Positions 6,755 to 56,017 of a DNA stretch of 64,000 bases are shown here, piece by piece. Within the stretch, counting starts at the first letter, position 1. Every line of letters starts with the position of its first letter. Source of the DNA: Fidelibacterota bacterium. Lineage in GTDB: Bacteria; Fidelibacterota; UBA2242. The notes beneath the pieces were generated by a model. The model was not told the DNA's origin. It did not search any database and saw nothing but the letters and a program-made list of their open reading frames with translations. The translations under genes were made by a program, and so were the position numbers. The stretch is taken from assembly GCA_041645495.1 (NCBI GenBank), contig JBAZPZ010000001.1, positions 9,730 through 73,729 on the forward strand. The letters are read 5' to 3'.

Positions 6755-7615
6755 ATGTGGTATTTAATTTCTCTCCTTTCCGGTTTCTTCATGGCGACCG
6801 CGGATGCGTACACCAAAAAGGAATCCACCCGCACACAGGCTATCGTGTTGTCATGGATTCGCGAAGCCTATGCGCTTCCGTTTCTATTACCGATTCTCGC
6901 CTTTATCGATATTCCACCGATTGGCTGGACTTTCATCGGCGCTCTGGCGATTTGCGTCGTCGTCGATCTGATCACGACTTTTTTGTACATGCGCGCTCTT
7001 CAAATCGCTCCGCTTTCTCTGACGGTTCCGTACCTCGGATTATCGCCGTTATTTCTTCTCGTGATTCCAACAATCGTTTTGGGTGAAACTCTCTCGCTGG
7101 CAGGAATTATTGGCGTGATTCTTATCTCGATGGGAACGTATCTGTTACAAATCGACCGCGCAAAGTACGGAATATTCGAACCGTGGCTGGCTATTTTTAA
7201 AAACCGCGGTTCGTTATACATGTTCATCGTCGCAGTGTGCTACGCGGTGACAGCGACATTCGGCAAACTGGCGATCCAGCATTCGTCACCGCTTTTCTTT
7301 GCCATTATTTACTTTTTCCTGTTAGCTGTCGGATTCACGCCGTTCGCGCTGATTTCCACCAAAGGGAAAATCAAACCGTTGTTACAATTTCCGCGCGAGC
7401 GGATACGAATCGGTCTGACGATGGCATTGATGGCTGTCTTTCATTTCACCGCCATCGGAATGATTCAGGTCGCCTACATGATTTCCCTGAAACGACTCTC
7501 GTTGTTGTTCGCAATTTTATACGGATGGTGGTTTTTCCACGAGAAAAACATCCGGGCGCGACTATTCGGAGGGACGATCATTATTGTCGGCGCGGTGTGT
7601 ATCGCATTTGCTTAG
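6755..7615 (+). CDS. EamA/DMT-family transporter
   Basis: The 286-aa ORF has about 10 hydrophobic helices and a two-EamA-repeat organisation. Confidence 0.65.
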   Translation: MWYLISLLSGFFMATADAYTKKESTRTQAIVLSWIREAYALPFLLPILAFIDIPPIGWTFIGALAICVVVDLITTFLYMRALQIAPLSLTVPYLGLSPLFLLVIPTIVLGETLSLAGIIGVILISMGTYLLQIDRAKYGIFEPWLAIFKNRGSLYMFIVAVCYAVTATFGKLAIQHSSPLFFAIIYFFLLAVGFTPFALISTKGKIKPLLQFPRERIRIGLTMALMAVFHFTAIGMIQVAYMISLKRLSLLFAILYGWWFFHEKNIRARLFGGTIIIVGAVCIAFA

Positions 7616-7633: not shown

Positions 7634-8716
7634 TTATATCGAAAAAATCGGAATTCTTCGCCCGACAACGACACTCACACCGAGTTCACGCGCCCGTTCA
7701 ACGAAGCCATGATAGATTTTATGTGAAACGAAGACAAATCCCTTGGCGTTCAGAAGTTTGATCGTTTGCTGAAAGGCTTTTAGTTCCGTGAACGAATCAT
7801 GCGTAATCGGATACGAAAAACACTGGAAAATATAGAGCGAACTTCCTTTCATCAGCGCAATATCGATCAGGCACTCGTTCTTGATCCCTTCCGGAACGGA
7901 GTCTCTGTCGAGCCGCACATCTAACCGGACGTCGTCGTACTGACTCTTGTGCACACGGAGGAAGACCATTTCCCGGAGCCAACCGCCGTTCAGCAGATAT
8001 TCATCAGGATTCGCGACGATTTCGACCATTTTCTGACTGGCGCCGCCGCCGAACTTGAATTTCATTCTGTCCTGTTCTGCTTCATATTCGATCTGGAGTT
8101 TAACCCTTCCGTCGTCATAATTCCATTTCGCGCTTTGTTTGACATTGCCCATTTTATTCCATTCGTCCCGGATTTTGTCGATAAACGGCATCAGATTGTC
8201 CATGTTGACTGCAATGAAATAGGTCAGCGGGCTTCTTCTGCCGATTTCCGGATCGAAGCGGGTTCCGGAGGTCATTTTGATTCCCTGTAGCGCGATGAAC
8301 TCGTTCACCGTCAGCGCAAGCTGGTAATATTTCGATTCACCCTGGCCGATATTGACAATCTTGGAATGATGCGTATCGATGTAGAAAACCTCTTTGTTGG
8401 CTTTTCGGAAAATGTCCACTGCCAAAGCCGCCTGCAGACGATCGCCGCCGGTAACATTCAACAAAATATCGTGTTCGGGATAATCGCGGAGAACGCCCTG
8501 ACAAAGTTTAACAAAGGAATCAACGTCGTCGCCGAGAATTTCACGCGTTTCGAACATGGGCGTCATATAAGTTGCAATGGCCGTTTCGATTTGTTGGGCG
8601 ATCGCTTTCTGCCGCGGCGTCCGAAGCCAGACGACGGCGTCCGGTTTTTTCAGTACCAAACCGAGAAAGCCATTGATCGGCGAATCATCAAGAAGGCAAA
8701 CTTCCAGTAAAGGCAT
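7634..8716 (-). CDS. DUF1887-family protein; candidate CARF domain plus PD-(D/E)xK nuclease (Card1/Can2-like cyclic-oligoadenylate effector), with no CRISPR nearby
   Basis: The N-terminal Rossmann-like region of the 360-aa ORF has a 'LLNVTGGDR' motif that resembles the CARF 'TGGTK' signature. The C-terminal region 'DVRLDRD...ECLIDIALMKG' is compatible with a restriction-endonuclease fold. This assignment is from memory of the family and has not been searched. Confidence 0.4.
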   Translation of the reverse strand: MPLLEVCLLDDSPINGFLGLVLKKPDAVVWLRTPRQKAIAQQIETAIATYMTPMFETREILGDDVDSFVKLCQGVLRDYPEHDILLNVTGGDRLQAALAVDIFRKANKEVFYIDTHHSKIVNIGQGESKYYQLALTVNEFIALQGIKMTSGTRFDPEIGRRSPLTYFIAVNMDNLMPFIDKIRDEWNKMGNVKQSAKWNYDDGRVKLQIEYEAEQDRMKFKFGGGASQKMVEIVANPDEYLLNGGWLREMVFLRVHKSQYDDVRLDVRLDRDSVPEGIKNECLIDIALMKGSSLYIFQCFSYPITHDSFTELKAFQQTIKLLNAKGFVFVSHKIYHGFVERARELGVSVVVGRRIPIFSI

Positions 8717-8897
8717 CTTCGACTCCTTTTTTTCCGTTTTTCATATTGTTCAAACGCCTTAAAACTTATTTACGCTTGAATTTACTAATAAATTTTTCTT
8801 TGTCAAGAACGGAATTTTATTTTTCCGGGAAAAGAAGTAAATAAGCAGTTCCCTAAATTGGAAACCGCTTATTTTGGAAATGATGTAGCCGGGATGT

Positions 8898-9944
8898 TTA
8901 TTTTATCGTCGGTTGCAGATAGTGGAATATCTTTCCTTCGTAATTCTTCAGGACGACTTCGTTTTCGTTGATTTCCTGCAAGTATTCGGGAAGAAGCGGA
9001 ATCTTTCCACCACCGCCAGGTGCATCTATGACAAACTGTGGAACGGCCATGCCGGATGTCCATCCGCGGATCGATTTGATGATCTCTAATCCTTTTTCGA
9101 CGCTGGTCCGAAAGTGTTCCGTCCCGTAAACCATGTCCGCCTGATAAATGTAGTAGGGTTTGACGCGGGCGGCCAGCAATTTCTGCATGAGTTTTTTCAT
9201 CACCACCGGATCATCGTTGACGCCTTTGAGCAGGACGGTCTGATCGCCCAACGGAATTCCTGCGTCGGCAAGTCGTCCCAGCGCCTTCACGGCGACCGGC
9301 GTCAGTTCATCCGGATGATTGAAATGCACGTTCATATAGAGCGGATGATATTTTTTCAGCATCTTGACGAGTTTGCTGGTGATTCGCTGGGGCAGGTAAC
9401 AAGGGACACGCGTGCCGATTCGGAGAATCTCGATGTGTTTGATCTTACGAAGCCTCGATAAGACGCTCTCGATCTGCTTATCGCTGAGAAGCAACGGATC
9501 GCCGCCCGAAATAATCACATCCCGGATTTCCGGATGGCTGGCAATGTACTTGATTCCCTGATCGATGAATTTCAGACTGATCTTGGTCGGGTCGCCGACT
9601 TTTCGCTTGCGGGTGCAAAACCGGCAGTACGAAGCGCAGTCGTGCGAAACCAAAAACAGGCATCTGTCGGGATACCGATGCACGATGCTGGGAACGGGCG
9701 AATCCTTTTCCTCGCAAAGCGGATCGGAAAATAGTTTATCCTGCTGAAGTTCCGCCAAGTCGGGAATGACCTGTTTATAGATCGGATCGCCTTTTTCCTT
9801 GATCAGCGATAAATAATACGGATTGATTTTGATATCGAATACCTTATCCAATCCTTTCAACTCTTCAATCGGAATGTTGAATTTTTCCGAGATTTCCTCG
9901 ATGGTCGTCAGACTTTTCTTTAATATTTTTTGCCACCGCTCCAT
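8898..9944 (-). CDS. Lysine 2,3-aminomutase family radical-SAM enzyme (KamA/AblA/EpmB-like)
   Basis: The 348-aa ORF has the CxxxCxxC radical-SAM motif 'CASYCRFCTRK' and KamA-family sequence throughout. Confidence 0.8.
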   Translation of the reverse strand: MERWQKILKKSLTTIEEISEKFNIPIEELKGLDKVFDIKINPYYLSLIKEKGDPIYKQVIPDLAELQQDKLFSDPLCEEKDSPVPSIVHRYPDRCLFLVSHDCASYCRFCTRKRKVGDPTKISLKFIDQGIKYIASHPEIRDVIISGGDPLLLSDKQIESVLSRLRKIKHIEILRIGTRVPCYLPQRITSKLVKMLKKYHPLYMNVHFNHPDELTPVAVKALGRLADAGIPLGDQTVLLKGVNDDPVVMKKLMQKLLAARVKPYYIYQADMVYGTEHFRTSVEKGLEIIKSIRGWTSGMAVPQFVIDAPGGGGKIPLLPEYLQEINENEVVLKNYEGKIFHYLQPTIK

Positions 9945-9958
9945 GGCTGATTCGACTC

Positions 9959-10453
9959 CTACTCTTTCTCTTTTGGTTTAAAATATTTGACAAAAATAAC
10001 ACGGTCATCGCCTTCACGGTAAAAATCCCTGATCTGCGCGGCGATCGTGTAACCGTTTCGTAAATAGAATCCGCGGGTCGGTAAGTATTTCTCGACCGAG
10101 GATGTTTCGATAATGATCAATCTGCCGACTTTTCGGGAAACCTCACCTTCGACAAATTGAAGCAATTGTTTGCCGATTCCCTGATTTTGGCAAACCACGT
10201 CCACGACGATCCAGTAAAGATCGAAGGTTCCGATTGTCGCCGGGGTCGGTCCGTAGCATACATAACCGACAATAGAATCCGTTTCGTCGGTTGCCACTTG
10301 AATGGTGTAATCCTTTTGTTCTTTTTGATTCAGGCAGACGTCGATGAGTTCCATCGCTACATCCACCTCCGCCGGAGAAAACATGCCAGTCTGCCTGATA
10401 ATCTGAAGGAGAACCGACCGGTCTTCCGGTTTGATTGAACGAATGTTAATCAT
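9959..10453 (-). CDS. GNAT-family N-acetyltransferase (AblB-like by context)
   Basis: The 164-aa ORF has the GNAT acetyl-CoA motif 'QNQGIGKQLL'. It lies 14 nt upstream of the kamA-like gene and overlaps the ATP-grasp stop. Confidence 0.7.
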   Translation of the reverse strand: MINIRSIKPEDRSVLLQIIRQTGMFSPAEVDVAMELIDVCLNQKEQKDYTIQVATDETDSIVGYVCYGPTPATIGTFDLYWIVVDVVCQNQGIGKQLLQFVEGEVSRKVGRLIIIETSSVEKYLPTRGFYLRNGYTIAAQIRDFYREGDDRVIFVKYFKPKEKE

Positions 10454-11468
10454 GATCCTTTCTTTGTAATGCCGTGATGATTTGTGTCGTCACGAATTCA
10501 TCGTATGAAATTCCCGCGGCTTTCAGCGCTTTGACATATCCCGCCGTGGGAGAGATATCGGGATTCGGATTGTATTCAAGAATGTAAATTTCACCGTGCT
10601 TATCCATCCGAAAATCGACTCGCCCATAACCGCTTCCGTTTAGCAATTCGTACACCCGAAGTGCAAGCGATTGGAGGCGGGCTTGCGTGGCGGAATCCAA
10701 CGTCGTCGGACAGACGGAAGGTGTCTTTTGATAAATGGGATCGTCTTCGCACCATTTCGCATCATAACTTGCGATGTGCGGCAAAGCGGCATCGAGCGCA
10801 TCGAACAGGATTTCCGATGGCGGCAGGGCAACCGGCGAACCGTTTTCCAGAATACCGACGGCAAATTCCCGTCCGTCAACAAACTGCTCGACCAAAATTT
10901 CCTGATGATATCGTTGCAATAACCGTTCGACCGAGGTTTTCAGTTCGGTCATATTCCGGATCACGGCGTTCCGGTCGATTCCGATACTTCCGTCTTCTCT
11001 TGAAGGTTTGGCGATCAACGGAAACCGTAAATGTGTTGCCGCCGGTACATCGGAAAAAGTCTCATAATCGGGAGTCGTTAAACCGGTCGCCCGAAGCATC
11101 TGCTTGGTCAGCACCTTATTCTGTGCGGTTCCAATTGTCAGCGCCGAATTCCCGGTGTACGGGATGTTCAGGAGTTCCCAGATTCCGGCAACGAACATTT
11201 CCTGCTGTGTGTTTCCGCGAAATCCTTCACACAGGTTGAAAATGACGTCAGGTTGAAACGAAACAATCATCTGAATATCTGAAGTCAGATTCTTCAACGG
11301 CAGAACGAGAAGTTGATATCCGAGTCGATCCAGCGACTGCGAAACGGCATCCGCCTCATCTTTAACGCCGGCTTCCGATAAAAATTCGGCATTCTCCGGA
11401 CTGGAGACGTCTTCGAAAGAATTATAGACGACTGCAACTTTTTTTCGTTGTTCTTCTTCGGCAGTCAT
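10446..11468 (-). CDS. ATP-grasp ligase, D-Ala-D-Ala ligase family (paralogue 2)
   Basis: The ORF track gives 10446..11663. The likely true start is 'MTAEEEQRKKVAVVYNSF' at 11468, which overlaps the stop of the upstream ATP-grasp gene in an ATGA arrangement. Ddl-like motifs are present. Confidence 0.7.
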   Translation of the reverse strand: MTAEEEQRKKVAVVYNSFEDVSSPENAEFLSEAGVKDEADAVSQSLDRLGYQLLVLPLKNLTSDIQMIVSFQPDVIFNLCEGFRGNTQQEMFVAGIWELLNIPYTGNSALTIGTAQNKVLTKQMLRATGLTTPDYETFSDVPAATHLRFPLIAKPSREDGSIGIDRNAVIRNMTELKTSVERLLQRYHQEILVEQFVDGREFAVGILENGSPVALPPSEILFDALDAALPHIASYDAKWCEDDPIYQKTPSVCPTTLDSATQARLQSLALRVYELLNGSGYGRVDFRMDKHGEIYILEYNPNPDISPTAGYVKALKAAGISYDEFVTTQIITALQRKDHD

Positions 11469-12517
11469 TATCGGAGGCCGCACCTCGCGGCAGATATGTC
11501 GAGGACTCGATTGAGCATTTGTGAATATGAATAGCCGGCTGTTCGCGCGGCTTTGGGGAAGCAGGAATTCTCGCGTGGATCGGGCAAGATTCCCGGAAGC
11601 GGGTTCAGTTCGAGAATATTTGGAACGCCGTCCGCATCCAAACGCACGTCGATCCGGCACCAATCGCGAATGTTCAGAACCTGATATGCGCGCTTGACCG
11701 TTTTTTCGATCGACGCTCTTAATTCAGGAGAAATCTTCGCCGGACAATCAAAAATATCCAGCGGCTTTTCGGTGGTATCCCACACCCATTTTGCTTCGAA
11801 GGAATAAATCGGTTGCGCGTCTTTCGGCAACTGAGAAAAATTCATCGAGATGATCGGCAGAACTTCGACTTCGGCGCCGTTTCCCCAGAGAGCGACGGTG
11901 AACTCGCGCCCCGGTAAAAACTCCTCAATGATCACCGGTTGCTGATATTTGTCGAAGTTTTCCCGCACAATTCGTTTCAACGATTCATAGTCTTTGACAA
12001 CGGAATTGTTAAAAATGCCTTTACTGCTTCCCTCCGAGATCGGCTTGACGATTGACGGAAATGGAGTGCCGCTTTCCGGAACTTCCTGATCGGGAAAAAT
12101 CATCCGGAACCGCGGATTCGGAACATCGTAATAACTTAAAATTTCCTTGGAACGGGCTTTATTCAGGCAAATCGCCAGCGTCAGCGGGCCCGAACCCGTA
12201 TACGGTAAACCTAAACGCTCGCACATCAACGGAACATAAGACTCGCGCAAGTCCCCAAATAATCCTTCGGCTACGTTAAAGACGATTTGCGGCCTGGCTT
12301 TTTCCAACCGCCGCATAATCGCATCATCGCCTTCGAAGCCGACGACCTCGTGCCCGTTTTCTTTGAATGAATTGATGATAGAATGTACCGTCCGAAGACT
12401 ATCGCCTTCGGCGAAAAGGTCGGGAGGAATATCTTCGTCATCCAGCTCGGAGGCGAAGCGTTTTTTATACTCCTTCACTAAACCTTTTTTCGTACTATAA
12501 GTGACAGCGATCTTCAT
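11468..12517 (-). CDS. ATP-grasp ligase, D-Ala-D-Ala ligase family (paralogue 1)
   Basis: The 349-aa ORF starts 'MKIAVTYSTKKG', a Ddl-like N-terminus. The pattern 'E.LPG.E...L.....L..LNP.PG' matches the ATP-grasp C-terminal region. Confidence 0.7.
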   Translation of the reverse strand: MKIAVTYSTKKGLVKEYKKRFASELDDEDIPPDLFAEGDSLRTVHSIINSFKENGHEVVGFEGDDAIMRRLEKARPQIVFNVAEGLFGDLRESYVPLMCERLGLPYTGSGPLTLAICLNKARSKEILSYYDVPNPRFRMIFPDQEVPESGTPFPSIVKPISEGSSKGIFNNSVVKDYESLKRIVRENFDKYQQPVIIEEFLPGREFTVALWGNGAEVEVLPIISMNFSQLPKDAQPIYSFEAKWVWDTTEKPLDIFDCPAKISPELRASIEKTVKRAYQVLNIRDWCRIDVRLDADGVPNILELNPLPGILPDPRENSCFPKAARTAGYSYSQMLNRVLDISAARCGLR

Positions 12518-28994: not shown

Positions 28995-30185
28995 TTATTC
29001 CAATATTTCGGTTACGACGCCGGCACCGACCGTCCGTCCGCCTTCTCGAATCGCAAACCGCAACTCTTTTTCCATCGCGATCTCCGTGATCAATTCTACC
29101 GTCACGTTCACATTGTCACCCGGCATCACCATCTCGATGCCTTCCGGCAAGGTCACGACGCCCGTCACGTCGGTCGTCCGAAAGTAAAACTGCGGACGAT
29201 ATCCCTTGAAAAACGGCGTGTGGCGGCCGCCTTCTTCCTTCGTCAATACATAAACTTTACCCAAGAATTTCTTGTGGGGCGTGATGCTCTTCGGCGCCGC
29301 GACTACCATGCCTCTCTGCAGCCAATCTTTTTCGATTCCGCGCAGAAGCAAACCAACATTGTCCCCCGCTTGGCCGCGATCCAACAACTTGCGGAACATT
29401 TCAACGCCCGTCACGACCGTCTTCTTGTAGCCGCCCAGACCGATAATCTCAACTTCTTCACCAACCTTGATGACGCCCCGGTCGATTCTGCCCGTGCCTA
29501 CCGTTCCGCGTCCCGTGATCGAAAAGACGTCTTCGATCGGCATCAGAAACGGCTTCTCGATGTCGCGCTTCGGTTCCGGTATGAAACTGTCAACCGCATC
29601 GATCAATTCCATGATGCACTTCGTCTTCTCCGGATCATCCGGATTGTTCAACGCTTCCAATGCGCTTCCCCGAATGATCGGCGTTGTGTCGCCCGGAAAA
29701 TTGTACTTGTTCAGCAAGTCCCTTAATTCCATCTCCACCAAATCTATCAATTCAGGATCATCTACCAGATCTATCTTGTTCAAAAATACTACCATGCTCG
29801 GTACATTCACCTGGCGTGCCAATAATACGTGCTCTCGCGTCTGGGGCATCGGGCCGTCAAATGCCGACACAACCAATATCGCGCCGTCCATCTGTGCCGC
29901 ACCCGTAATCATGTTCTTGATGTAATCCGCGTGTCCCGGACAATCCACGTGCGCATAATGCCGCTTCGGCGACTCGTATTCCACGTGCGCCGTATTGATC
30001 GTGATCCCGCGCGCTTTCTCTTCCGGCGCGTTGTCAATACTGTCAAATGTCCGTACATCCGCAAATCCTTGCTTATGCAAAACAAATGTCATCGCCGCCG
30101 TCAACGTCGTCTTCCCGTGATCCACGTGGCCGATCGTCCCTACGTTTACATGCGGTTTCGTCCGCTTAAATTGTTGCTTTGCCAT
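28995..30185 (-). CDS. tuf: Elongation factor Tu, str-operon copy (tufA position)
   Basis: The 396-aa ORF has the GTPase G1-G4 motifs and is identical in sequence to the copy at 44543..45733. Confidence 0.97.
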
Positions 30186-44294: not shown

Positions 44295-44367
44295 CAGGTG
44301 AGGCAGGAATTGAACCCGCAACCCCCGGTTTTGGAGACCGGTGCTCTACCAATTGAGCTACTCACCT
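44295..44367 (-). tRNA. trpT: tRNA-Trp (anticodon CCA)
   Basis: Folded by hand. The acceptor is AGGTGAG/CTCACCT, the anticodon loop is CTCCAAA, the T-loop is TTCAATT, and the length is 73 nt. Confidence 0.85.
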
Positions 44368-44377
44368 TCATTGCCAT

Positions 44378-44527
44378 CTATCTGGTTTCCTTATGGACCG
44401 TATGTTTCTTACACCAACGACAATATTTCTTGTGTTCGACACGGTTCGGATGCAGTTTCTTATTCTTATCGGTCGAATAATTCCGCCGCTTGCAAACCGT
44501 ACATTCAAGGGTGATAATATCACGCAT
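44378..44527 (-). CDS. rpmG: 50S ribosomal protein L33 (zinc-ribbon form)
   Basis: This gene is not in the ORF track. My own translation gives [49 protein letters not shown] (49 aa), with four Cys. Confidence 0.85.
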
Positions 44528-44542
44528 CTTCGTTACCTTTGT

Positions 44543-45733
44543 CTATTCCAATATTTCGGTTACGACGCCGGCACCGACCGTCCGTCCGCCTTCTCGAATC
44601 GCAAACCGCAACTCTTTTTCCATCGCGATCTCCGTGATCAATTCTACCGTCACGTTCACATTGTCACCCGGCATCACCATCTCGATGCCTTCCGGCAAGG
44701 TCACGACGCCCGTCACGTCGGTCGTCCGAAAGTAAAACTGCGGACGATATCCCTTGAAAAACGGCGTGTGGCGGCCGCCTTCTTCCTTCGTCAATACATA
44801 AACTTTACCCAAGAATTTCTTGTGGGGCGTGATGCTCTTCGGCGCCGCGACTACCATGCCTCTCTGCAGCCAATCTTTTTCGATTCCGCGCAGAAGCAAA
44901 CCAACATTGTCCCCCGCTTGGCCGCGATCCAACAACTTGCGGAACATTTCAACGCCCGTCACGACCGTCTTCTTGTAGCCGCCCAGACCGATAATCTCAA
45001 CTTCTTCACCAACCTTGATGACGCCCCGGTCGATTCTGCCCGTGCCTACCGTTCCGCGTCCCGTGATCGAAAAGACGTCTTCGATCGGCATCAGAAACGG
45101 CTTCTCGATGTCGCGCTTCGGTTCCGGTATGAAACTGTCAACCGCATCGATCAATTCCATGATGCACTTCGTCTTCTCCGGATCATCCGGATTGTTCAAC
45201 GCTTCCAATGCGCTTCCCCGAATGATCGGCGTTGTGTCGCCCGGAAAATTGTACTTGTTCAGCAAGTCCCTTAATTCCATCTCCACCAAATCTATCAATT
45301 CAGGATCATCTACCAGATCTATCTTGTTCAAAAATACTACCATGCTCGGTACATTCACCTGGCGTGCCAATAATACGTGCTCTCGCGTCTGGGGCATCGG
45401 GCCGTCAAATGCCGACACAACCAATATCGCGCCGTCCATCTGTGCCGCACCCGTAATCATGTTCTTGATGTAATCCGCGTGTCCCGGACAATCCACGTGC
45501 GCATAATGCCGCTTCGGCGACTCGTATTCCACGTGCGCCGTATTGATCGTGATCCCGCGCGCTTTCTCTTCCGGCGCGTTGTCAATACTGTCAAATGTCC
45601 GTACATCCGCAAATCCTTGCTTATGCAAAACAAATGTCATCGCCGCCGTCAACGTCGTCTTCCCGTGATCCACGTGGCCGATCGTCCCTACGTTTACATG
45701 CGGTTTCGTCCGCTTAAATTGTTGCTTTGCCAT
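44543..45733 (-). CDS. tuf: Elongation factor Tu, second copy (tufB position, downstream of the tRNA array)
   Basis: The 396-aa ORF is 100% identical to the 28995..30185 copy. The antisense frames are identical too, so the nucleotide sequences are identical. Confidence 0.97.
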
Positions 45734-45750
45734 CGGTGCTCCTTAAGTTT
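44544..45750. repeat. 1207-bp perfect direct repeat, copy B
   Basis: See copy A; the offset between copies is 15548 bp. Confidence 0.85.
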
Positions 45751-45799
45751 TTATTTCTTCTCATTTTTTCTATTTGACGATTACTCCAAGTTTTCCATG

Positions 45800-45872
<73 letters not shown>

Positions 45873-45906
45873 ATTCAGTCTCAAATTCTCTCGTTTTCAA
45901 TGACCT

Positions 45907-45948
45907 TCCCGAAGCCTCGGGACGCTCTACCAACTGAGCTACTTGGGC
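45907..45948 (-). pseudogene. Truncated duplicate of the tRNA-Thr(GGT) 5' half (26 nt identical), followed by a GC-rich tetraloop hairpin; not a functional tRNA
   Basis: On the minus strand, GCCCAAGTAGCTCAGTTGGTAGAGCG is identical to nt 1-26 of thrT. It is followed by TCCCGAGGCTTCGGGA (a 6-bp stem with a GGCT loop). There is no anticodon arm or T-arm. Confidence 0.7.
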
Positions 45949-46027
45949 AACGAGTTCCAAGTTTTGGGTTTTGGATTCGGATAAAATCAGTGAACCTAAT
46001 CAACCATTCAACCCAATTTCTCAATCA

Positions 46028-46098
46028 ACTTTTTTGACCAGGCTGAGCGGGTGAAGGGGATCGGACCCTCGTAGCCAGCTTGGAAGGCTGGAGCTTTA
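46028..46098 (-). tRNA. glyT: tRNA-Gly (anticodon TCC)
   Basis: The acceptor is GCGGGTG/CACCCGC, the anticodon loop is CTTCCAA, and the length is 71 nt. Confidence 0.85.
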
Positions 46099-46106
46099 CC
46101 ACTAAG

Positions 46107-46189
46107 CTACACCCGCAAAAGAAGAGTGGGCCGGGATGGGTTCGAACCACCGTAGGCATTCACCGGCAGATTTACAGTCTGCTGCCATT
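46107..46189 (-). tRNA. tyrU: tRNA-Tyr (anticodon GTA), with a long variable arm
   Basis: The acceptor is GGGTCGG/CCGGCCC, the anticodon loop is CTGTAAA, and there is a 13-nt variable arm. The length is 83 nt. Confidence 0.85.
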
Positions 46190-46370
46190 AACCACTCGGC
46201 CACCGACCCACTAAGTATTTTTTGTTGATTTTTTTAGAAGAGGATTTTGAAAATTGTTTGAATCTTCAATCTGACACCTTCGAAAGCGTTTACTCTCTCC
46301 CAAAAAACCCGTCAGTCACGAGCATTGGTAACCGTCAAATCTCTATTTCAAATATCTTCATTTCAAACGT

Positions 46371-46443
46371 CGAGCCACCAGTAGGATTTGAACCCACGAC
46401 CCGCTGATTACAAATCAGCTGCTCTACCAACTGAGCTATGGTG
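46371..46443 (-). tRNA. thrU: tRNA-Thr (anticodon TGT)
   Basis: The acceptor is GCCACCA/TGGTGGC, the anticodon loop is TTTGTAA, and the length is 73 nt. Confidence 0.85.
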
Positions 46444-46740
46444 GCATTCATTTGTCAAACATTTCACCCGTCAGTTCCATCGGTCGCATCTCAACTGTCC
46501 GCGCTTTCCGGGCTACGGTAGCTATCAGTCTGCATTTAAAAAAGCCACGAAATTTACAAATAATTTTTCCCATAACAACAATATTTTTTCACTTCAAGAT
46601 CATTTTTTTGAGGACTTAACCGTCTCCAAACAATTTTTCAGTTCATTTTACTGATTACTGTCTATCGCTGAATCTTGATAATCCGCACGCCTTTGCTTTG
46701 ATGCCGCTGTCTATGCGTTTGAGAATATTTTCGATGGTTA

Positions 46741-49993: not shown

Positions 49994-50110
49994 ATTAAAA
50001 ATATTTATTTGTGGATACTGGCTTAGGAGAATTCTTAGTGAGGATATTTAATTGTACTGGCGGTTTGTCCAGATCGCTGGTATTGATGAGTTTGAGAATA
50101 CCGTTGTCGG

Positions 50111-51652
50111 TTACGTAAACGATTCGTTCCAAATCAAACGTGCCAGAAAATAGGGAAACGAATTGTCCTGTATATTTACCCGTTCGAATTTAACAAGCAT
50201 CAGAATCGAATCTTTTCCTTCCATCGGATCTTTCACACATAGCTTAGCAGGGAAAATGCTGTGCCAAAGATTTTGATAGAAATATCTCTTTGCGTTTTGG
50301 GCGACAATATTTTTTAAATCCGGATCGGATTCTCTTCTCAAAGAGTTACCAATACCCTCAAGCAATTGATTGAAAAAGTTACCGTCCGGATAAATTTTAT
50401 TATCTTCTAAAAAACGTTTTAAATCACAATATGATTGCAGAATGGCTTTTCTGATTTGGTTATCATCAAGAACTTCAACAGGTTCAAAGAGCGTAGCCAA
50501 CATTTTTTCATAAGGCATTCTTTGGTTGAATTCAAGATTGAACCAGGCGCGCATCGCAATCATAAAAAAGAACGCTGCGTCCTTCGGACACAAATCGTCC
50601 GCGATCTGGCCATGAGACGACCAGTTTCGCAATAATTTCATCTGCCGCTCATAGTTGTTCTTGAAACGGTATTCAATGTCAAAGTTTGATAAATGCTCAA
50701 TAAAATGACCGGCGCTCATTTCCCATTCGGCGGATAGTTCTTTGATGAACTGATAATAGAGTGACTCAGCGTTTTCCGGCGGATTCAGCGGGAAAAAATT
50801 CTCCAGCTTTGACAGATAATCGCGGATATATTCCTTTTCAATTTTTGAATCTGTTGTTCTGTTGAAAAGAATCCACTCAGCGATTTCTTTTTCCAGCCGG
50901 TCTTTTAAATAACGGCAGGCATTGATGATTCCCCTTCTCAGTGCAATGTACGGAAAGTGCGCTCCGCGTTTAGTCAGGCGATTGTCGAGCCAGGCATGGA
51001 AATTCGCGACGTCGCTCTTGTGAATCGAAGGTGCCAATTCGGATAAAGCATCACAAAATTTTTCCTCAAAACGGTCATAAAGGTCTTTATTGGTTTCTCC
51101 GGCTTTCATCTTCCGAATGACTTCGGTTAGAAACTCATTTATCCGCTGAATATTGCCCATCGTCTGATATTCCTGCAATATTTCATCAAACGCCTCGTTG
51201 TCCGGGTCAGAAAGCAACTCTCTGATTTTTGCGATAATACCTATAAAATGCTCGGGATTTTTTGTTTCCAGCAGACGGTCTTTATAGGTTTTGACCCGGT
51301 AACCATTGGAAGCATGTCCTGTCAGGAAAACAATCCGGTCGTTATGAAATCCTTGCCGTATTAGCTGCTGATAGAGATAAAATCCGGACTCCTCGAGAAA
51401 CTCTGTATTTTTTCGCCCAAATTCATGGGCAATTTTTCTCACCAATTCCGTTTCCGGAAAATCTTTCAGATTAAGGTCGAATACGACAAGATCATATTCC
51501 GAAGTCGCTCTATGAATAGCGGCGTAACAGTCATCAAAATTGCGGGGAATATCCAGCCGGTTTACTTCGTCGGTGAAAAAACCGCTTTCCTGAAAGAGGA
51601 TACGGTCTCTTTGATCACCCTGCGGGGCGTCTTCGATCCAGAGAATGTTCAT
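50111..51652 (-). CDS. Response-regulator receiver (REC) domain protein fused to a ~400-aa domain of unknown function
   Basis: The N-terminus 'MNILWIEDA...DLVVFDLNLKD' is a CheY-like acidic pocket and phospho-acceptor Asp pattern. Its start overlaps the upstream kinase gene in an ATGA arrangement. Its C-terminus is paralogous to the 160-aa protein. Confidence 0.6.
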   Translation of the reverse strand: MNILWIEDAPQGDQRDRILFQESGFFTDEVNRLDIPRNFDDCYAAIHRATSEYDLVVFDLNLKDFPETELVRKIAHEFGRKNTEFLEESGFYLYQQLIRQGFHNDRIVFLTGHASNGYRVKTYKDRLLETKNPEHFIGIIAKIRELLSDPDNEAFDEILQEYQTMGNIQRINEFLTEVIRKMKAGETNKDLYDRFEEKFCDALSELAPSIHKSDVANFHAWLDNRLTKRGAHFPYIALRRGIINACRYLKDRLEKEIAEWILFNRTTDSKIEKEYIRDYLSKLENFFPLNPPENAESLYYQFIKELSAEWEMSAGHFIEHLSNFDIEYRFKNNYERQMKLLRNWSSHGQIADDLCPKDAAFFFMIAMRAWFNLEFNQRMPYEKMLATLFEPVEVLDDNQIRKAILQSYCDLKRFLEDNKIYPDGNFFNQLLEGIGNSLRRESDPDLKNIVAQNAKRYFYQNLWHSIFPAKLCVKDPMEGKDSILMLVKFERVNIQDNSFPYFLARLIWNESFT

Positions 51653-54153
51653 TGCTCTTTCTCCTTGTTGAGTTGTTTTGCCAGAAGCTCAAAATCCAAT
51701 TCCGTTTTTGGTTTATATGGCACGAAAATATCTTTCAGAAAACGAAACGTCACCTGGAATTTTCCGTTTTCTTCACGCCAGGTAAAGACTTTGTCTTTTT
51801 CCCGAATGTCATTCAGCATTTCAAGGTCGTTTTGAATTCCCTCCAACCCTTTTCCAGTACTAATCGATACGTTTTGTGTGTAGGGATTTTCCCACTCGCA
51901 TACCAGGAACGTCCGGTTTTCGATTTCCTCTTCGTGAAATCTAACATCAATCCAGATATCTTGTTCAATATCACGGTATTTCAGCGCATTGAACAGCAAT
52001 TCCTGAAAATAGCCCTGAAGCAAGGCTTCCGAGTAGCCGTCACGCCGCAGACGAATCGCATTCCAGAGCGGACTCAGCGTACAATCAATCCTGCCAATGT
52101 TGGCACTCGCCCATTCGATGGCACTGCGGTTGGGATTGAAGAAGACGTTCTCTTCAAAATCCACTCTTAGCTGGTCTAAAGTTGTTCCCCGCCGGGCGCA
52201 GATTTGCGTGCGAATTGGGTCTAATTTCCGGTAATCCGCATTCAGGAAGCGGGCGACGATGCGTTGAACAGAACTATTCAGGATTTCCTTTATGCTGATT
52301 GCCTTTTCCGTCATGTCTTCTGGCAGACGATCACCGCGGATCAACTGCTGAAATTCCGCTGGATTGCCGGTATTACGTGCCTGCAGAAGCAAACCCTGAT
52401 TTCGAATAATCGTCTCGGCGAGGTAAGCGTCGGTCAATATCCGAGCATCGCGACGGAATTCGATGTGACTCTTGAGGCGATTGGCAACCTCGTAAATCGC
52501 ATTCGGATAAAGCGTATTCGCTAACGTATGCGAATACTGTTGGATCATGCGCTCTTTTTCGCGACGATGATGCTCTGCTTGCCGTGCTAATTCTTCTTTT
52601 TTTTCATCCTCATCAGACCTTCTCTTTTCCTCCGTAATCTGAAAAATTCGTTCATTCAGTTTCACTAAAATACCGATATATAATTTAGACTTTAGAATAA
52701 CATCTGAAGTGTTCGCACTTTTAGGTTTTTGATATTCGTATATAGTATTGTCCACCCCATCCGGTAGAACTTCATTTCCAGATCGATCAAGTTCTCCCGC
52801 TGGTTCAAGCTTAGACGGAATTATTGAGTCGCCGAAGAAATTTTCCAGAATGAGTGATTTAATATTAAGCGTATAGAGTTCTCGTCCCTTGTTACCAAAG
52901 TGCTGAAGATACTCATCCAGGATAAAATCCAAATTTTGGCTGAATTTATATTGTGGGAATTTCAACTCTAATAGAAAATCCAGTTCTCCAAAATCTTCGG
53001 TTGGTTTTAACTCACCACCAGGGTTAACTAAATATTTAATAATGCTGTCTTCATCTCCGAGTCCTTGAACTTCCAAAGATGAAAAACCGAATATTTTGTT
53101 GCATATCGAATAGAACTGTTCAAGCGAAGCGAACAAACAAGAGTCACCAATGGCTCCAATTATATCAGGTAATATTTGTGGCAATGGTGAGATAAAATTT
53201 TCCGAAAATAAAGCAACCTCAATAGATAAAAAATCTTTAGGCTTATTAGGTATATTGCTGATAAAAGCCTTCAAATTATTTTCATAGAGATCTTTTTCTC
53301 TGTTTCGCAAATAAATGTATGAAAGGTAAGCAGGAACAGCCCACTTGACATACATCATATAAACTTGGGGCATACTTTCTGCTACCTTTAAATCTTTTAG
53401 AAAGGATTGCAATTGCAGAAAATCACTTAAGGCTAAGTTGAAATTTTCTGCTTTCAAATAGCACTTGGCTCGATTATAGAGAACTTCTGGTTTAAATTTA
53501 TCCTTTAAAATTATTGAAAAATCTTTACCGGCTTTTTCATACTCATCTAAAATAAAAAATAATTTTGCTCTTTTTTCATAGGAAATTGAATCAGGTTCAA
53601 TTTCAATAGCTTTTGTGTAGGCTTCCACCGCCTTGCTATATTCTCCTCTAATTCTATTTTGATCTCCAAGTTTTATCCAACCGGATTTCAATTTTGGATC
53701 AATTTTTACAGCATTAGAAAAATCATTTAATATCTCATTATCTGGCATTTCCATCGGATCCAGCAAAGCATTTCTGACACTTCCTCGAAAGTAATAGTAT
53801 TTGGCAACATTCGGATTCAATTCTATTGCCTTATTAAAACTATTTATCATACAGCCATATTCATCCTTATCCCTCCAAAGCCAAAACAAATCCTTTGGTC
53901 TATCACACCAAAGGATCAATCCTTTTAAAAAGTAATATTCTGCATAATTGGGATTTAAACTGATAGCCTGATCTATATCTCCATGCGCCTCATCAAACAT
54001 TCCTTTATCTTTGTAAGCAATCGCCCTCATGTAATAGTTGTCAGGATTTTTACTGTCTTTTTCAATGAGTTTGCTCAATTCCTCAATTGAAAGATTTTTC
54101 ATGCCATCACTTTTCATTTTTTTATCTCCGCCATTGGATTGCAATTTTCCCAC
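51649..54153 (-). CDS. Cytoplasmic TPR-repeat protein fused to an atypical histidine-kinase-like (GHKL) ATPase domain
   Basis: The 834-aa ORF has ~400 aa of N-terminal TPR repeats and a coiled coil. It has a candidate H-box 'QQYSHTLANTLY', an N-box 'ELLFNALKY' and a G-box 'STGKGLEG'. No TM segments are present. The TPR-encoding half is AT-rich. Confidence 0.55.
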   Translation of the reverse strand: MGKLQSNGGDKKMKSDGMKNLSIEELSKLIEKDSKNPDNYYMRAIAYKDKGMFDEAHGDIDQAISLNPNYAEYYFLKGLILWCDRPKDLFWLWRDKDEYGCMINSFNKAIELNPNVAKYYYFRGSVRNALLDPMEMPDNEILNDFSNAVKIDPKLKSGWIKLGDQNRIRGEYSKAVEAYTKAIEIEPDSISYEKRAKLFFILDEYEKAGKDFSIILKDKFKPEVLYNRAKCYLKAENFNLALSDFLQLQSFLKDLKVAESMPQVYMMYVKWAVPAYLSYIYLRNREKDLYENNLKAFISNIPNKPKDFLSIEVALFSENFISPLPQILPDIIGAIGDSCLFASLEQFYSICNKIFGFSSLEVQGLGDEDSIIKYLVNPGGELKPTEDFGELDFLLELKFPQYKFSQNLDFILDEYLQHFGNKGRELYTLNIKSLILENFFGDSIIPSKLEPAGELDRSGNEVLPDGVDNTIYEYQKPKSANTSDVILKSKLYIGILVKLNERIFQITEEKRRSDEDEKKEELARQAEHHRREKERMIQQYSHTLANTLYPNAIYEVANRLKSHIEFRRDARILTDAYLAETIIRNQGLLLQARNTGNPAEFQQLIRGDRLPEDMTEKAISIKEILNSSVQRIVARFLNADYRKLDPIRTQICARRGTTLDQLRVDFEENVFFNPNRSAIEWASANIGRIDCTLSPLWNAIRLRRDGYSEALLQGYFQELLFNALKYRDIEQDIWIDVRFHEEEIENRTFLVCEWENPYTQNVSISTGKGLEGIQNDLEMLNDIREKDKVFTWREENGKFQVTFRFLKDIFVPYKPKTELDFELLAKQLNKEKEQ

Positions 54154-54320
54154 CTAACCAGCACAACACCGACTTCGAAAGATGTGATGCCGGCACTTAA
54201 TGTAATCCTTACCCCAAATAAATAGTTTATAATCAAAGCAAAATAGAGAAAACCGAAAATTCTGAGTTCTCCCGACCAGGTCGTTTCTGTCTGTTCTGTT
54301 TCAATTTTCAGGATTTTCAT
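54114..54320 (-). CDS. Possible small membrane protein (68 aa) upstream of the TPR-kinase gene; could be spurious
   Basis: It has one hydrophobic segment. It overlaps the annotated kinase start by 40 nt, but does not overlap if the kinase starts at the internal Met codons at 54117 or 54102. Confidence 0.2.
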   Translation of the reverse strand: MKILKIETEQTETTWSGELRIFGFLYFALIINYLFGVRITLSAGITSFEVGVVLVRWENCNPMAEIKK

Positions 54321-54540
54321 GTTTTCTTCTTTTTGCTACTTTTGCTTCATGTTTTCAAATGTCGATCTCACTTATGCAATTAATAAACCAAAACCAAATT
54401 TCATGTCCCTGACGTACAATTTTCCCGATTCGCCCGATAGAAAAAATGAAATGTAATGGTTATATCCAAGAAGTCGGTAGTTCTGAACCGGTAAAAATCT
54501 TTACTTTCATCTGTCAAAATTTTTTCAACCCAAATTGTCT

Positions 54541-55701: not shown

Positions 55702-55801
55702 GGTTGCAAATTAAAAGATAGCCTTTCAATTTGCAAGGTTAATTTTTATTGTGGTCATACCGGTAATACCGTATATTACCACCAATGAAAATGGAGCCAA
55801 T

Positions 55802-56017
55802 ATGAAACCTGTAACATTCAAAATTGACGATGAATTGATTAACGAAATCGATGCGCTCGCGCAAGAACTGCATGAAAACCGGAGTTCATTGATTAAAAAA
55901 GCGTTGAACTTTTACCTTGACAATTATGACGGTATTGTTGCCAAGACTCGGCAGGATGACCCGGAAAGAGTCATGATTCCGCATGAAGACGTGTTAAAAG
56001 AATATGGCCTCTTGTAA
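55802..56017 (+). CDS. Ribbon-helix-helix (CopG/RelB/ParD-like) antitoxin
   Basis: The start is 'MKPVTFKIDDELINEIDALA...RSSLIKKALNFYL'. A GGAG RBS lies upstream. It overlaps the toxin gene by 14 nt. Confidence 0.7.
   Translation: MKPVTFKIDDELINEIDALAQELHENRSSLIKKALNFYLDNYDGIVAKTRQDDPERVMIPHEDVLKEYGLL

What the first reader, a model, noticed from the sequence alone, without database searches (positions are those of the whole stretch)
7634..8716. Orphan Card1/Can2-like CARF-nuclease (DUF1887) without any CRISPR-Cas locus in the window
The 360-aa protein has a Rossmann-like N-terminal half with a TGG(D)R motif reminiscent of CARF ligand-binding loops, and a C-terminal half compatible with a PD-(D/E)xK nuclease. 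This matches the Card1/DUF1887 architecture.

It lies among metabolic genes, away from any cas or CRISPR element. If the family call is correct, it could be a standalone cyclic-nucleotide-activated nuclease.
Basis: inference. Interest (0 to 1): 0.5.

Follow-up and report, generated by a model that had tools for sequence, protein, structure and literature searches.

The report
Catalytically dead, domesticated Can2/Card1 homologue
The gene does encode a Card1/Can2-type protein (a CRISPR helper nuclease fold), but in this Marinimicrobia lineage it has lost four of the five nuclease catalytic residues and most of its cyclic-tetra-adenylate contacts, yet is strongly conserved at a fixed housekeeping spot in the chromosome, so it looks like an immune nuclease re-used for a non-cutting job.

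Summary
The ORF (7634-8716, minus strand, 360 aa) is real. It belongs to the Card1/Can2 (DUF1887) family by sequence and by fold: both Pfam domains score above their cutoffs, PADLOC gives 1e-33, and an AlphaFold model (pLDDT 91.5) matches Can2, VC1899 and Card1 at TM about 0.7. No CRISPR array or cas gene is present in the window.

The "standalone cyclic-nucleotide-activated nuclease" reading is not supported. In 134 outgroup representatives the Can2 motif E-ExD-(E/S)xK is nearly invariant, with Lys in 134/134. In this clade it reads R-(L/M/I)xD-QxF, invariant across 40 relatives. The cA4-contact tetrad S-T-K-Y is also not kept, and the CARF domain is more acidic.

The gene is not decaying: dN/dS is 0.07 overall and 0.04 in the nuclease-like domain. 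It has its own conserved promoter-like element. It sits at the same position (rpoA-rplQ-GHL10 ... gene, convergent with EamA) in about 31 Marinimicrobia/Fidelibacterota species. The five nearest outgroup relatives all lie in type III CRISPR or CRISPR-associated loci.

Best reading: an exapted Can2-derived pseudonuclease, probably a ligand-sensing, nucleic-acid-binding protein that does not cut. Its actual function is inferred, not shown. Novelty: a new variant of a known kind.

The parts
7634..8716 (-). Gene for the 360-aa Can2/Card1-like protein (stop codon at 7634-7636)
   Evidence: ORF list; Pfam, PADLOC and PDB hits; 100% identical protein P0001 in public data
8267..8716 (-). N-terminal CARF domain (residues 1-150)
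   Evidence: PF23400 matches aa 29-139. SthCan2 CARF aligns to aa 6-155. The model shows Rossmann-like alternating strands and helices. Median net charge is -6 in the clade versus -1 in the outgroup.
8438..8458 (-). CARF signature loop NVTGGDR (residues 87-93). N87, T/S89, G90, G91 and R93 are 90-98% conserved. R93 replaces the cA4-phosphate-binding Lys99 of SthCan2, and position 92 (Thr in Can2/Card1) is variable.
   Evidence: Can2 contacts from PMC7969007
8684..8689 (-). Residues D10-D11 after strand 1. D10 occupies the position of the cA4 contact Ser19 of SthCan2 (clade: D21/N9/G5/S4/A1), as Asp9 does in VC1899.
8012..8266 (-). Middle subdomain (residues 151-235), including the clade-specific, near-invariant block GTRFDPEIGKRS directly after the CARF domain
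7637..8011 (-). C-terminal restriction-endonuclease-like (PD-(D/E)xK fold) domain, residues 236-360. It is the most constrained part of the protein.
   Evidence: PF09002 matches aa 241-350; fold match to Can2, VC1899 and Card1; lowest column entropy; dN/dS 0.041
7970..7987 (-). Helix motif GGWLRE (residues 244-249). R248 is invariant and occupies the position of the motif-I Glu (E in 132/134 outgroup representatives).
7862..7876 (-). ECLID (residues 281-285). D285 is retained (the ExD Asp, 134/134 in the outgroup). L283 (L/M/I in the clade) occupies the position of the ExD Glu (131/134 in the outgroup), an inner-sphere metal ligand in TbrCan2.
7817..7825 (-). QCF (residues 298-300) in place of the catalytic (E/S)-C-K. 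Q298 and C299 are invariant and F300 is present in 39/40. The outgroup has Lys in 134/134.
8779..8806 (-). The gene's own sigma-70-type promoter-like element, TTGACA-16 nt-TAAATT, ending 62 nt before the ATG. A GGAG ribosome-binding site follows.
   Evidence: Scanner hit, 10 of 12 matches. The same element with the same 16-nt spacer and TAAATT occurs in about 22 of 28 orthologous loci. Function not tested.
8839..8874 (-). Terminator-like hairpin (15-bp stem) closing the upstream aminomutase operon, which makes the CARF gene a separate transcription unit
6755..7615 (+). Convergent EamA-family transporter gene (stop codons 18 bp apart). It is a conserved syntenic neighbour. No functional link is shown.
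   Evidence: Pfam EamA. Adjacent in 33 of 37 CARF-anchored loci, three of the other four extending well past the gene (L017, L033, L035) and one ending 268 bp after it (L021), and in 14 of 18 EamA-anchored loci.

Best explanation
[quoted passage not shown] It keeps the two-domain fold (CARF sensor plus restriction-endonuclease-like domain) but no longer has the metal-dependent nuclease site. It also no longer has the conserved cA4-contact residues, so it is not a cOA-activated nuclease. The gene is transcribed on its own from a conserved promoter-like element, at a fixed core-chromosome position.

Most likely mechanism (inferred, not shown): a homodimer, like Can2, whose remodelled CARF pocket binds a phosphate-containing ligand other than cA4. 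The pocket keeps the conserved (T/S)GGxR loop but is otherwise acidic. The C-terminal domains are basic and now rich in invariant Arg and His residues. They would bind, but not cleave, nucleic acid or another phosphorylated partner. That would make the protein a ligand-gated binding or regulatory protein with a housekeeping role.

Shown here: homology, fold, loss of the catalytic and cA4-contact residues, purifying selection, synteny, and the absence of cas genes and arrays in the DNA examined. Inferred: dimerisation, ligand binding, nucleic-acid binding, and the cellular role.
For: Homology and fold.

Catalytic motif: the outgroup of 134 full-length representatives has helix-E 132/134, ExD-E 131/134, D 134/134, E/S 133/134 and K 134/134. 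The clade has R248, L/M/I283, D285, Q298 and F300, invariant or nearly so across 40 relatives. Three independent alignments agree, anchored by the shared D285 and C299. TbrCan2 E341A, SthCan2 E276A/D278A and TsuCan2 E302A/K304A are used as nuclease-dead variants in PMC7969007 and PMC10783487.

cA4 pocket: the outgroup tetrad is S/G-T/S-K-Y in about 90% of representatives. The clade has D/N/G at position 10, Thr in only 20/40 at position 33, Arg at 93, and Y/F/L at 112. The CARF domain has a net charge of -6 versus -1. VC1899, with a similar Asp/Arg pocket, is reported not to be regulated by cA4.

Selection: dN/dS is 0.070 overall and 0.041 in the nuclease-like domain. All 40 relatives are 356-367 aa with no truncation.

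Domestication: the clade is isolated, scoring 649-166 bits before a gap to 114 bits or less. Thirty-one species genomes carry it, and all the named ones are Neomarinimicrobiota or Fidelibacterota. Synteny is rpoA-rplQ-GHL10-(optional cassette)-gene, convergent with EamA. The gene has its own conserved promoter-like element and an upstream terminator. There is no CRISPR array or cas gene in the window or in 576 kb of loci. In contrast, 5 of 5 nearest outgroup relatives lie in type III or CRISPR-associated loci.

Against: No biochemical data exist. Loss of canonical residues does not prove loss of all catalysis. The clade gained invariant R248, R254, H256, R264 and H332, and it keeps E249, D262 and D285, which could form a different active site. 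I could not inspect model coordinates, so the geometry around D285, including any R248-D285 pairing, is unverified. The CARF loop with T/S89, G90, G91 and R93 is still conserved, so binding of cA4 or another cyclic oligoadenylate is not excluded. Whole genomes could not be scanned, so a type III system, CBASS or another cyclase elsewhere in these genomes is not excluded. Nucleic-acid binding is inferred only from ancestry and from a basic domain (pI 9.0, net +3). Adjacency to EamA is not universal (14 of 18 loci in the EamA-anchored sample).
Confidence: 0.62

Rival explanations
1. The protein is still an enzyme, with a rebuilt active site. The clade-specific invariant residues in the old nuclease cleft (R248, E249, R254, H256, D261/D262, R264, D285, Q298, H332) would form a new catalytic centre. 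This could be a metal-independent His/Arg-based RNase or phosphodiesterase, possibly acting on RNA ends or on a nucleotide messenger.
For: The nuclease-like domain is the most constrained part of the protein: dN/dS 0.041, lowest column entropy, 14% invariant columns. Several polar or charged residues are invariant in the clade but variable in the outgroup (R254, H256, R264, H332). The E-to-S variant at the (E/S)xK position is active in TbrCan2, so that position tolerates change. [quoted passage not shown]
Against: Four of the five canonical positions are replaced, two of them by hydrophobic residues (L/M/I283 and F300) that would occupy the old site. No invariant Lys exists anywhere in residues 236-360. 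No match to a known His-based nuclease motif was found by inspection. Strong conservation fits a binding surface equally well.
Confidence: 0.2
2. One reading: an orphan but functional Card1/Can2 nuclease, activated by cyclic oligoadenylate made by a type III CRISPR-Cas or other cyclase encoded elsewhere in the genome.
For: Clear Card1/Can2 homology and fold. The GG loop and a basic residue at the Lys99 position are conserved. Whole genomes were not scanned, so a distant cyclase cannot be excluded.
Against: The catalytic Lys is replaced by Phe, the motif-I Glu by Arg, the ExD Glu by Leu/Met/Ile, and the E/S position by Gln. All are fixed in the clade, whereas the outgroup has Lys in 134/134. 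The cA4 contacts Ser19, Thr42 and Tyr118 are not conserved and the pocket is acidic. The gene sits at a fixed core-genome position across about 31 species, unlike patchy defence genes. The nearest relatives with intact motifs sit inside type III loci, and this clade never does.
Confidence: 0.06
3. A cOA sponge or ring nuclease: a non-cutting CARF protein that buffers or degrades cyclic oligoadenylates to damp type III signalling.
For: The CARF fold also resembles the ring nucleases Sso2081/Crn1 and Sis0455 in the fold search (TM about 0.25-0.28 over the CARF domain only). A dead effector domain fits a decoy role.
Against: The cA4 contacts are not conserved and the pocket is acidic. No cas or cOA context was found in any of the 57 clade loci examined. 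The strongest constraint is on the C-terminal domain and not on the CARF pocket, the opposite of what a sponge or ring nuclease would show.
Confidence: 0.06
4. A decaying relic: a former defence gene 'cast adrift' and on its way to loss, with no current function.
For: Zhu et al. suggested this for the orphan VC1899. The catalytic and ligand residues are lost here.
Against: dN/dS is 0.07 with dS near 0.95, so substitutions are near saturation and still the protein is held. Forty relatives down to 38% identity keep the same length and 31 invariant residues. A conserved promoter-like element and conserved synteny are present.
Confidence: 0.02

Closest known systems
Can2 / Card1 (DUF1887; type III CRISPR ancillary CARF + PD-(D/E)xK nucleases: SthCan2 7BDV, TbrCan2 8Q3Z, Card1 6WXW, Can2 8BAO, Cdn1 9U49)
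   Same: The same two-domain architecture, length and fold (TM 0.6-0.74). Both Pfam domains score above cutoff. Shared motifs include the CARF (T/S)GG loop, the LTVNEY linker, the GGW helix start, and the Asp and Cys of the D...xCx strands.
   Different: The catalytic motif E-ExD-(E/S)xK reads R-(L/M/I)xD-QxF. The cA4-contact tetrad S-T-K-Y is not conserved. The CARF domain is more acidic. The gene is never in a CRISPR-cas locus, it sits at a fixed core-genome position, and it is restricted to a single phylum.
VC1899 of Vibrio cholerae (PDB 1XMX), the orphan founding member of DUF1887
   Same: It is an orphan (not CRISPR-associated). Its pocket has Asp at the Ser19 position and Arg at the Lys99 position, and it is reported not to be regulated by cA4 (PMC7969007). 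It also shares an (F/H)RP motif after strand 4.
   Different: VC1899 keeps the nuclease residues (E291/D293 and IIECK). This clade has lost them. VC1899 was discussed as a possibly degenerate enzyme, whereas this clade is a strongly constrained, phylum-wide orthologue.
Can1 N-terminal nuclease-like domain (PDB 6SCE)
   Same: A PD-(D/E)xK-fold domain within the same superfamily that lacks the canonical active-site residues and serves a non-catalytic role. Can1 is a fold hit at 1.3e-11.
   Different: Can1 still carries a second, active nuclease domain and is a cA4-activated CRISPR effector. Here the only nuclease-like domain is the degenerate one.
RtcR / Csa3 (CARF domains re-used as sensors for regulators)
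   Same: CARF used as a sensor outside, or at the edge of, type III immunity. RtcR is a housekeeping CARF protein proposed to sense tRNA halves with 2',3'-cyclic phosphate ends (PMC10159003). An RtcR-like gene is present in this same window.
   Different: Those proteins have HTH or AAA+ output domains. This protein has none: the Csa3_N hit is only 13 bits against a cutoff of 27. Its output domain is a dead nuclease fold.

Membership tests
Can2/Card1 (DUF1887) homologous family | N-terminal CARF domain of the Card1 type | tested here: met
   PF23400 25.3 bits against cutoff 24.6; profile versus SthCan2 CARF 1.5e-20; fold match
Can2/Card1 (DUF1887) homologous family | C-terminal Card1-like restriction-endonuclease fold domain | tested here: met
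   PF09002 32.1 bits against cutoff 26.4; full-length Foldseek hits to Can2, VC1899 and Card1, TM 0.6-0.74
Can2/Card1 as functional cOA-activated nucleases | Catalytic motif E-ExD-(E/S)xK (metal ligands plus Lys) | tested here: not met
   The clade has R248, L/M/I283, D285, Q298 and F300. The outgroup has E 132/134, E 131/134, D 134/134, E/S 133/134 and K 134/134.
Can2/Card1 as functional cOA-activated nucleases | Conserved cA4 contacts (SthCan2 Ser19, Thr42, Lys99, Tyr118) | tested here: not met
   Position 10: D21/N9/G5/S4/A1. Position 33: Thr in 20/40. Position 93: Arg in 36/40. Position 112: Y17/F11/L9/I2/A1. The outgroup keeps S/G-T/S-K-Y in about 90%.
Can2/Card1 as functional cOA-activated nucleases | Genomic association with a type III CRISPR-Cas locus (Cas10 cyclase) | tested here: not met
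   No array or cas gene in the 64-kb window. No CRISPR-like array in the window plus the first 37 related loci, 576 kb. None of the 57 clade loci shows a cas neighbourhood: neighbours were identified with the window's own proteins and with Pfam for L001-L006. Whole genomes could not be scanned. Five of five nearest outgroup relatives are in such loci.
Can2/Card1 as functional cOA-activated nucleases | cA4-dependent DNase/RNase activity; homodimer with a cA4 site at the CARF dimer interface | not testable with these tools
   Needs biochemistry or a multimer prediction. Only single-chain prediction was available.
VC1899-like orphan DUF1887 | Orphan context, with an acidic or hydrophobic pocket and Arg at the Lys99 position | tested here: met
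   D10/D11 and R93; CARF net charge -6; VC1899 residues from PMC7969007
VC1899-like orphan DUF1887 | Retained nuclease residues (ExD and ECK) | tested here: not met
   VC1899 has LDVATVVNNKLHIIECKT, aligned to IDIAMMKGCKFYIFQCFS in the clade profile.
CARF ring nucleases (Crn1/Sso2081, Sis0455) | Stand-alone CARF with ring-nuclease catalytic residues; cA4 binding | tested here: inconclusive
   Only weak, CARF-only fold similarity (TM 0.25-0.28, E about 1e-3 to 1e-4). Catalytic residues were not mapped. The pocket contacts are not conserved.
CARF transcription regulators (Csa3, RtcR) | CARF fused to an HTH or AAA+ output domain | tested here: not met
   No HTH or AAA+ domain found. Csa3_N scores 13 bits against cutoff 27, and TIGR01884 scores 17.5 against 60.2.

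The most novel reading that the evidence does not exclude
A CRISPR ancillary nuclease was captured early in Marinimicrobia evolution and turned into a core, phylum-wide housekeeping receptor. Its CARF domain now senses an endogenous ligand, such as an RNA-damage product or a nucleotide messenger other than cA4. Its dead or rebuilt nuclease domain acts on nucleic acid without the canonical chemistry. This would be a new functional class, a 'CARF-pseudonuclease', and a second example after RtcR of CARF signalling outside immunity.
Probability: 0.3. Interest if true: 0.7.

Novelty: new variant of a known kind. Interest (0 to 1): 0.5.

Why it matters
Can2/Card1 proteins are studied as cOA-activated immune nucleases, and genome annotation labels this clade simply as "DUF1887 family CARF protein". 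Defence-system finders such as PADLOC score it strongly (1e-33), so a tool of that kind could count it as a defence effector. The clade has lost the nuclease chemistry and the conserved cA4 contacts, yet it is held under strong selection at a housekeeping locus across a major marine phylum. That has two consequences. It warns against inferring cOA signalling or defence from CARF-nuclease homology alone. It also offers a clean natural case for studying how an immune effector is re-used, and what ligands CARF domains can evolve to sense. Marinimicrobia (SAR406) are abundant and mostly uncultured ocean bacteria, so a lineage-defining conserved gene of unknown role is also of ecological interest.

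Tried and rejected
- The Makarova et al. 2020 CARF classification could not be read (DOI and PMC7498327 are not held). I therefore could not check whether an inactivated CARF4/DUF1887 branch is mentioned there.
- A full-text search for Marinimicrobia plus CARF found nothing. The CARF effector review does not mention VC1899 or orphan forms.
- One paper search and one read failed on term syntax.
- Model coordinates are not exposed to the scripting machine. I could not measure distances around D285 or check for an R248-D285 salt bridge.
The 1.67-Mb contig carrying P0010 could be read only within ±10 kb of the gene.
- "Csx1/Csm6 CARF+HEPN" PADLOC hits in the window looked like a possible hidden effector. 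They belong to the CARF domain of the RtcR-like sigma-54 activator.
- I looked for a conserved divergent partner or operon that would suggest a regulatory target. None exists: the upstream neighbour varies (aminomutase cassette, GHL10 or orf216), and the only constant neighbour, EamA, is convergent.
- The pseudogene and relic idea was rejected on dN/dS.
Full report
**1. Observation**

An ATG-initiated ORF of 360 aa lies exactly at 7634..8716 on the minus strand.
- Pfam Card1_endonuc (PF09002) scores 32.1 bits against a cutoff of 26.4, over aa 241-350.
- Pfam CARF_Card1 (PF23400) scores 25.3 bits against a cutoff of 24.6, over aa 29-139.
- PADLOC CARF4--CARF_PDDEXK gives 1.3e-33 over the full length.
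- The PDB sequence hits are Can2 (7bdv, 1.8e-16), Card1 (6wxw/6xl1, about 4e-7) and VC1899.

An AlphaFold2 model built on 40 homologues is confident (pLDDT 91.5, pTM 0.86). Its best PDB matches are full-length Can2 8bao (E 1.8e-23, TM 0.72), SthCan2 7bdv, VC1899 1xmx, Card1 6xl1, Cdn1 9u49 and Can1 6sce. The "TGG(D)R" loop is NVTGGDR at residues 87-93 and aligns with NVTGGTK and NITGGTK of Can2 and Card1. The window has no CRISPR array. A PADLOC scan of 56 window proteins found no Cas10 or core cas protein. So the observation, the architecture and the "orphan" status are all confirmed.

**2. What the sequence says about function**

The alignments to Card1 and Can2 showed that the catalytic strand "(V/I)IECK(S/T)" reads "YIFQCFS" here.

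In an alignment of 40 relatives (38-100% identity, all 356-367 aa), Q298 and C299 are invariant and F300 is present in 39/40. D285 and the GGWLRE helix are also invariant.

Jungfer et al. define the Can2 motif as E-ExD-(S/E)x..K. The ExD Glu and Asp are inner-sphere metal ligands, and E341A is a dead enzyme (PMC10783487). Zhu et al. used E276A/D278A (SthCan2) and E302A/K304A (TsuCan2) as nuclease-dead variants (PMC7969007).

A HMMER search of 1.84 billion representative proteins with the clade profile returned 1049 family members. I aligned the 134 full-length outgroup proteins among the best 150 with clade representatives.

| Motif position | Outgroup (134) | This clade |
|---|---|---|
| Helix Glu (GxWxE) | E 132/134 | R248, invariant in 40/40 |
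| Glu of ExD | E 131/134 | L/M/I283 |
| Asp of ExD | D 134/134 | D285 |
| (E/S) of (E/S)xK | E 82, S 51 | Q298 |
| Lys of (E/S)xK | K 134/134 | F300 |

Four of the five catalytic positions are therefore replaced, two of them by hydrophobic residues. No invariant Lys exists anywhere in residues 236-360.

The ligand pocket is also changed. The four cA4 contacts conserved between Can1 and Can2 are Ser19, Thr42, Lys99 and Tyr118 in SthCan2 (PMC7969007). They appear as S/G-T/S-K-Y in about 90% of the outgroup. In the clade they are D/N/G/S (Ser in only 4/40), Thr in 20/40, Arg in 36/40, and Y/F/L/I. The clade's CARF domain has a median net charge of -6 against -1 in the outgroup. The Asp/Arg pattern resembles VC1899, an orphan DUF1887 that Zhu et al. 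report is not regulated by cA4. The loop N87, T/S89, G90, G91 and R93, together with D114, remains 90-98% conserved. From this I infer that some phosphate-containing ligand is still bound.

**3. The gene is functional and domesticated**

- **Selection.** Nei-Gojobori dN/dS between the window gene and its 88%-identical orthologue (L007) is 0.070 overall. By domain it is 0.087 (CARF), 0.071 (middle) and 0.041 (nuclease-like), with dS about 0.95. The degenerate domain is the most constrained.
- **Isolation.** The clade scores 649-166 bits, then there is a gap to 114 bits or less.
- **Taxonomy.** A scan of species-representative genomes found the gene in 31 genomes. All the named ones are Candidatus Neomarinimicrobiota/Marinimicrobia or Fidelibacterota. 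This is a lower bound, because the scan depends on two peptide patterns.
- **Synteny.** The order is ribosomal spc/alpha operon ... rpoA-rplQ-GHL10-(optional orf216)-(optional 2x ATP-grasp-GNAT-lysine-2,3-aminomutase-like cassette)-CARF gene, then a convergent EamA transporter. EamA is adjacent in 33 of 37 CARF-anchored loci. Of the other four, L017, L033 and L035 extend well beyond the gene without an EamA, and L021 ends 268 bp after the gene. In a sample anchored on EamA instead, 14 of 18 loci with enough DNA carry the gene, and four do not.
- **Transcription.** The gene has its own promoter-like element, TTGACA-16-TAAATT at 8806..8779, 62 nt before the ATG. The same element with the same spacer occurs in about 22 of 28 loci. 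A 15-bp hairpin terminator precedes it and ends the upstream operon.
- **CRISPR context.** No CRISPR-like array occurs in 576 kb of window plus loci. In contrast, the five nearest outgroup relatives I could look up (P0046, P0047, P0049, P0050, P0055; motifs DSCK or DECK) all lie inside type III loci or next to CRISPR-associated genes: Cas10-Csm2-RAMPs, Cmr5-RAMP, Csx3, Cas_NE0113, Cas_APE2256, Cas6, Cas1/Cas2.

**4. Mechanism**

Shown:
- Can2/Card1 homology and fold.
- Loss of the canonical metal and Lys site.
- Loss of the conserved cA4 contacts.
- Strong purifying selection.
- Independent transcription signals.
- Vertical inheritance at a core locus without a cas context.

Inferred: the protein forms a Can2-like dimer. 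Its remodelled CARF pocket senses a ligand other than cA4. Its basic, Arg/His-rich nuclease-like domains (pI 9.0) bind nucleic acid or another phosphorylated partner without cutting it. The clade-specific invariants in that domain are R248, R254, H256, R264 and H332.

Precedents are the catalytically empty nuclease-like domain of Can1 and the housekeeping CARF sensor RtcR. An RtcR-like protein is encoded in this same window.

The main rival is a rebuilt, non-canonical active site formed from those same invariant residues. The active-orphan-nuclease, sponge/ring-nuclease and decaying-relic readings are each disfavoured by the data above.

**5. Comparison and novelty**

The protein is a member of the DUF1887/Can2/Card1 homologous family, and public annotation already calls its relatives "DUF1887 family CARF protein". 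It fails the defining functional features of Can2/Card1 effectors: the catalytic motif, the cA4 contacts and the type III association. It differs from the known orphan VC1899, which keeps ExD and ECK.

I found no description of such a clade in the searchable literature. The key CARF classification paper could not be read. I rate it a new variant of a known kind: a phylum-restricted, conserved pseudonuclease branch of Can2/Card1.

**6. Verdict**

Interest is 0.5. Exaptation of CARF domains and dead nuclease domains both have precedents. A core-genome, phylum-wide, strongly constrained dead Can2 is unexpected, can be tested directly, and is a caution for defence-system annotation.

Noticed in passing
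window 56300-57760 (-): A second CARF protein in the window: an RtcR-like CARF + sigma-54 AAA+ activator of 486 aa (PADLOC RtcR_PspF2 5.6e-128; Pfam Sigma54_activat 5e-65 and RtcR 2.7e-8). No rtcA or rtcB is seen next to it. Its neighbours are an AAA_14/DUF4143 ATPase and an NAD-dependent epimerase, so its regulatory target is unclear.
   Followed up: partly
window ~50000-56000: A low-GC stretch (0.39-0.41 against about 0.49 elsewhere). It holds a 513-aa ORF with no Pfam or PADLOC hit (50111-51652), an 834-aa TPR protein (51649-54153), and an AAA_14-DUF4143 ATPase that matches the candidate defence family PDC-S01 (54541-55701, 3.6e-96). It may be an acquired island.
   Followed up: partly
window 8898-12517 (-): A cassette of two D-Ala-D-Ala-ligase-like ATP-grasp enzymes, a GNAT acetyltransferase and a lysine-2,3-aminomutase-like radical SAM enzyme. 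It is present between GHL10 and the CARF gene in some lineages and absent in others (for example L005, L011, L023). The aminomutase plus GNAT pair recalls ablA/ablB, the N-epsilon-acetyl-beta-lysine osmolyte pathway. That is my recollection and was not tested.
   Followed up: partly
L043-L047 (outgroup type III loci): In the Can2 loci of the outgroup, a small MJ1673-family gene (PF27247, about 125 aa) abuts or overlaps the Can2 start or stop, and in L043, L044, L046 and L047 a Cas_NE0113 CARF gene follows; in L045 it lies upstream. This is a recurrent MJ1673-Can2-NE0113 module that is absent from the Marinimicrobia clade.
   Followed up: no
L060, L061, L065, L067; L017: Four EamA-anchored metagenome loci lack the CARF gene next to EamA. 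Conversely, L017 has the CARF gene followed by an 804-aa gene in place of EamA. The adjacency is therefore broken in some lineages, by rearrangement or by loss; which one was not resolved.
   Followed up: partly
window 44295-46445 (-): A cluster of five tRNA genes, including two tandem copies that share a 41-nt repeat (45847-45963, 85% identity). This is the only direct repeat found in the window. Two 396-aa ORFs of equal length (28995-30185 and 44543-45733) flank the rpoBC/ribosomal region. They look like duplicated elongation-factor genes but were not checked.
   Followed up: no
window 8839-8874 (-): An unusually long (15-bp stem) terminator-like hairpin directly after the aminomutase gene and just upstream of the CARF gene's promoter-like element.
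   Followed up: partly
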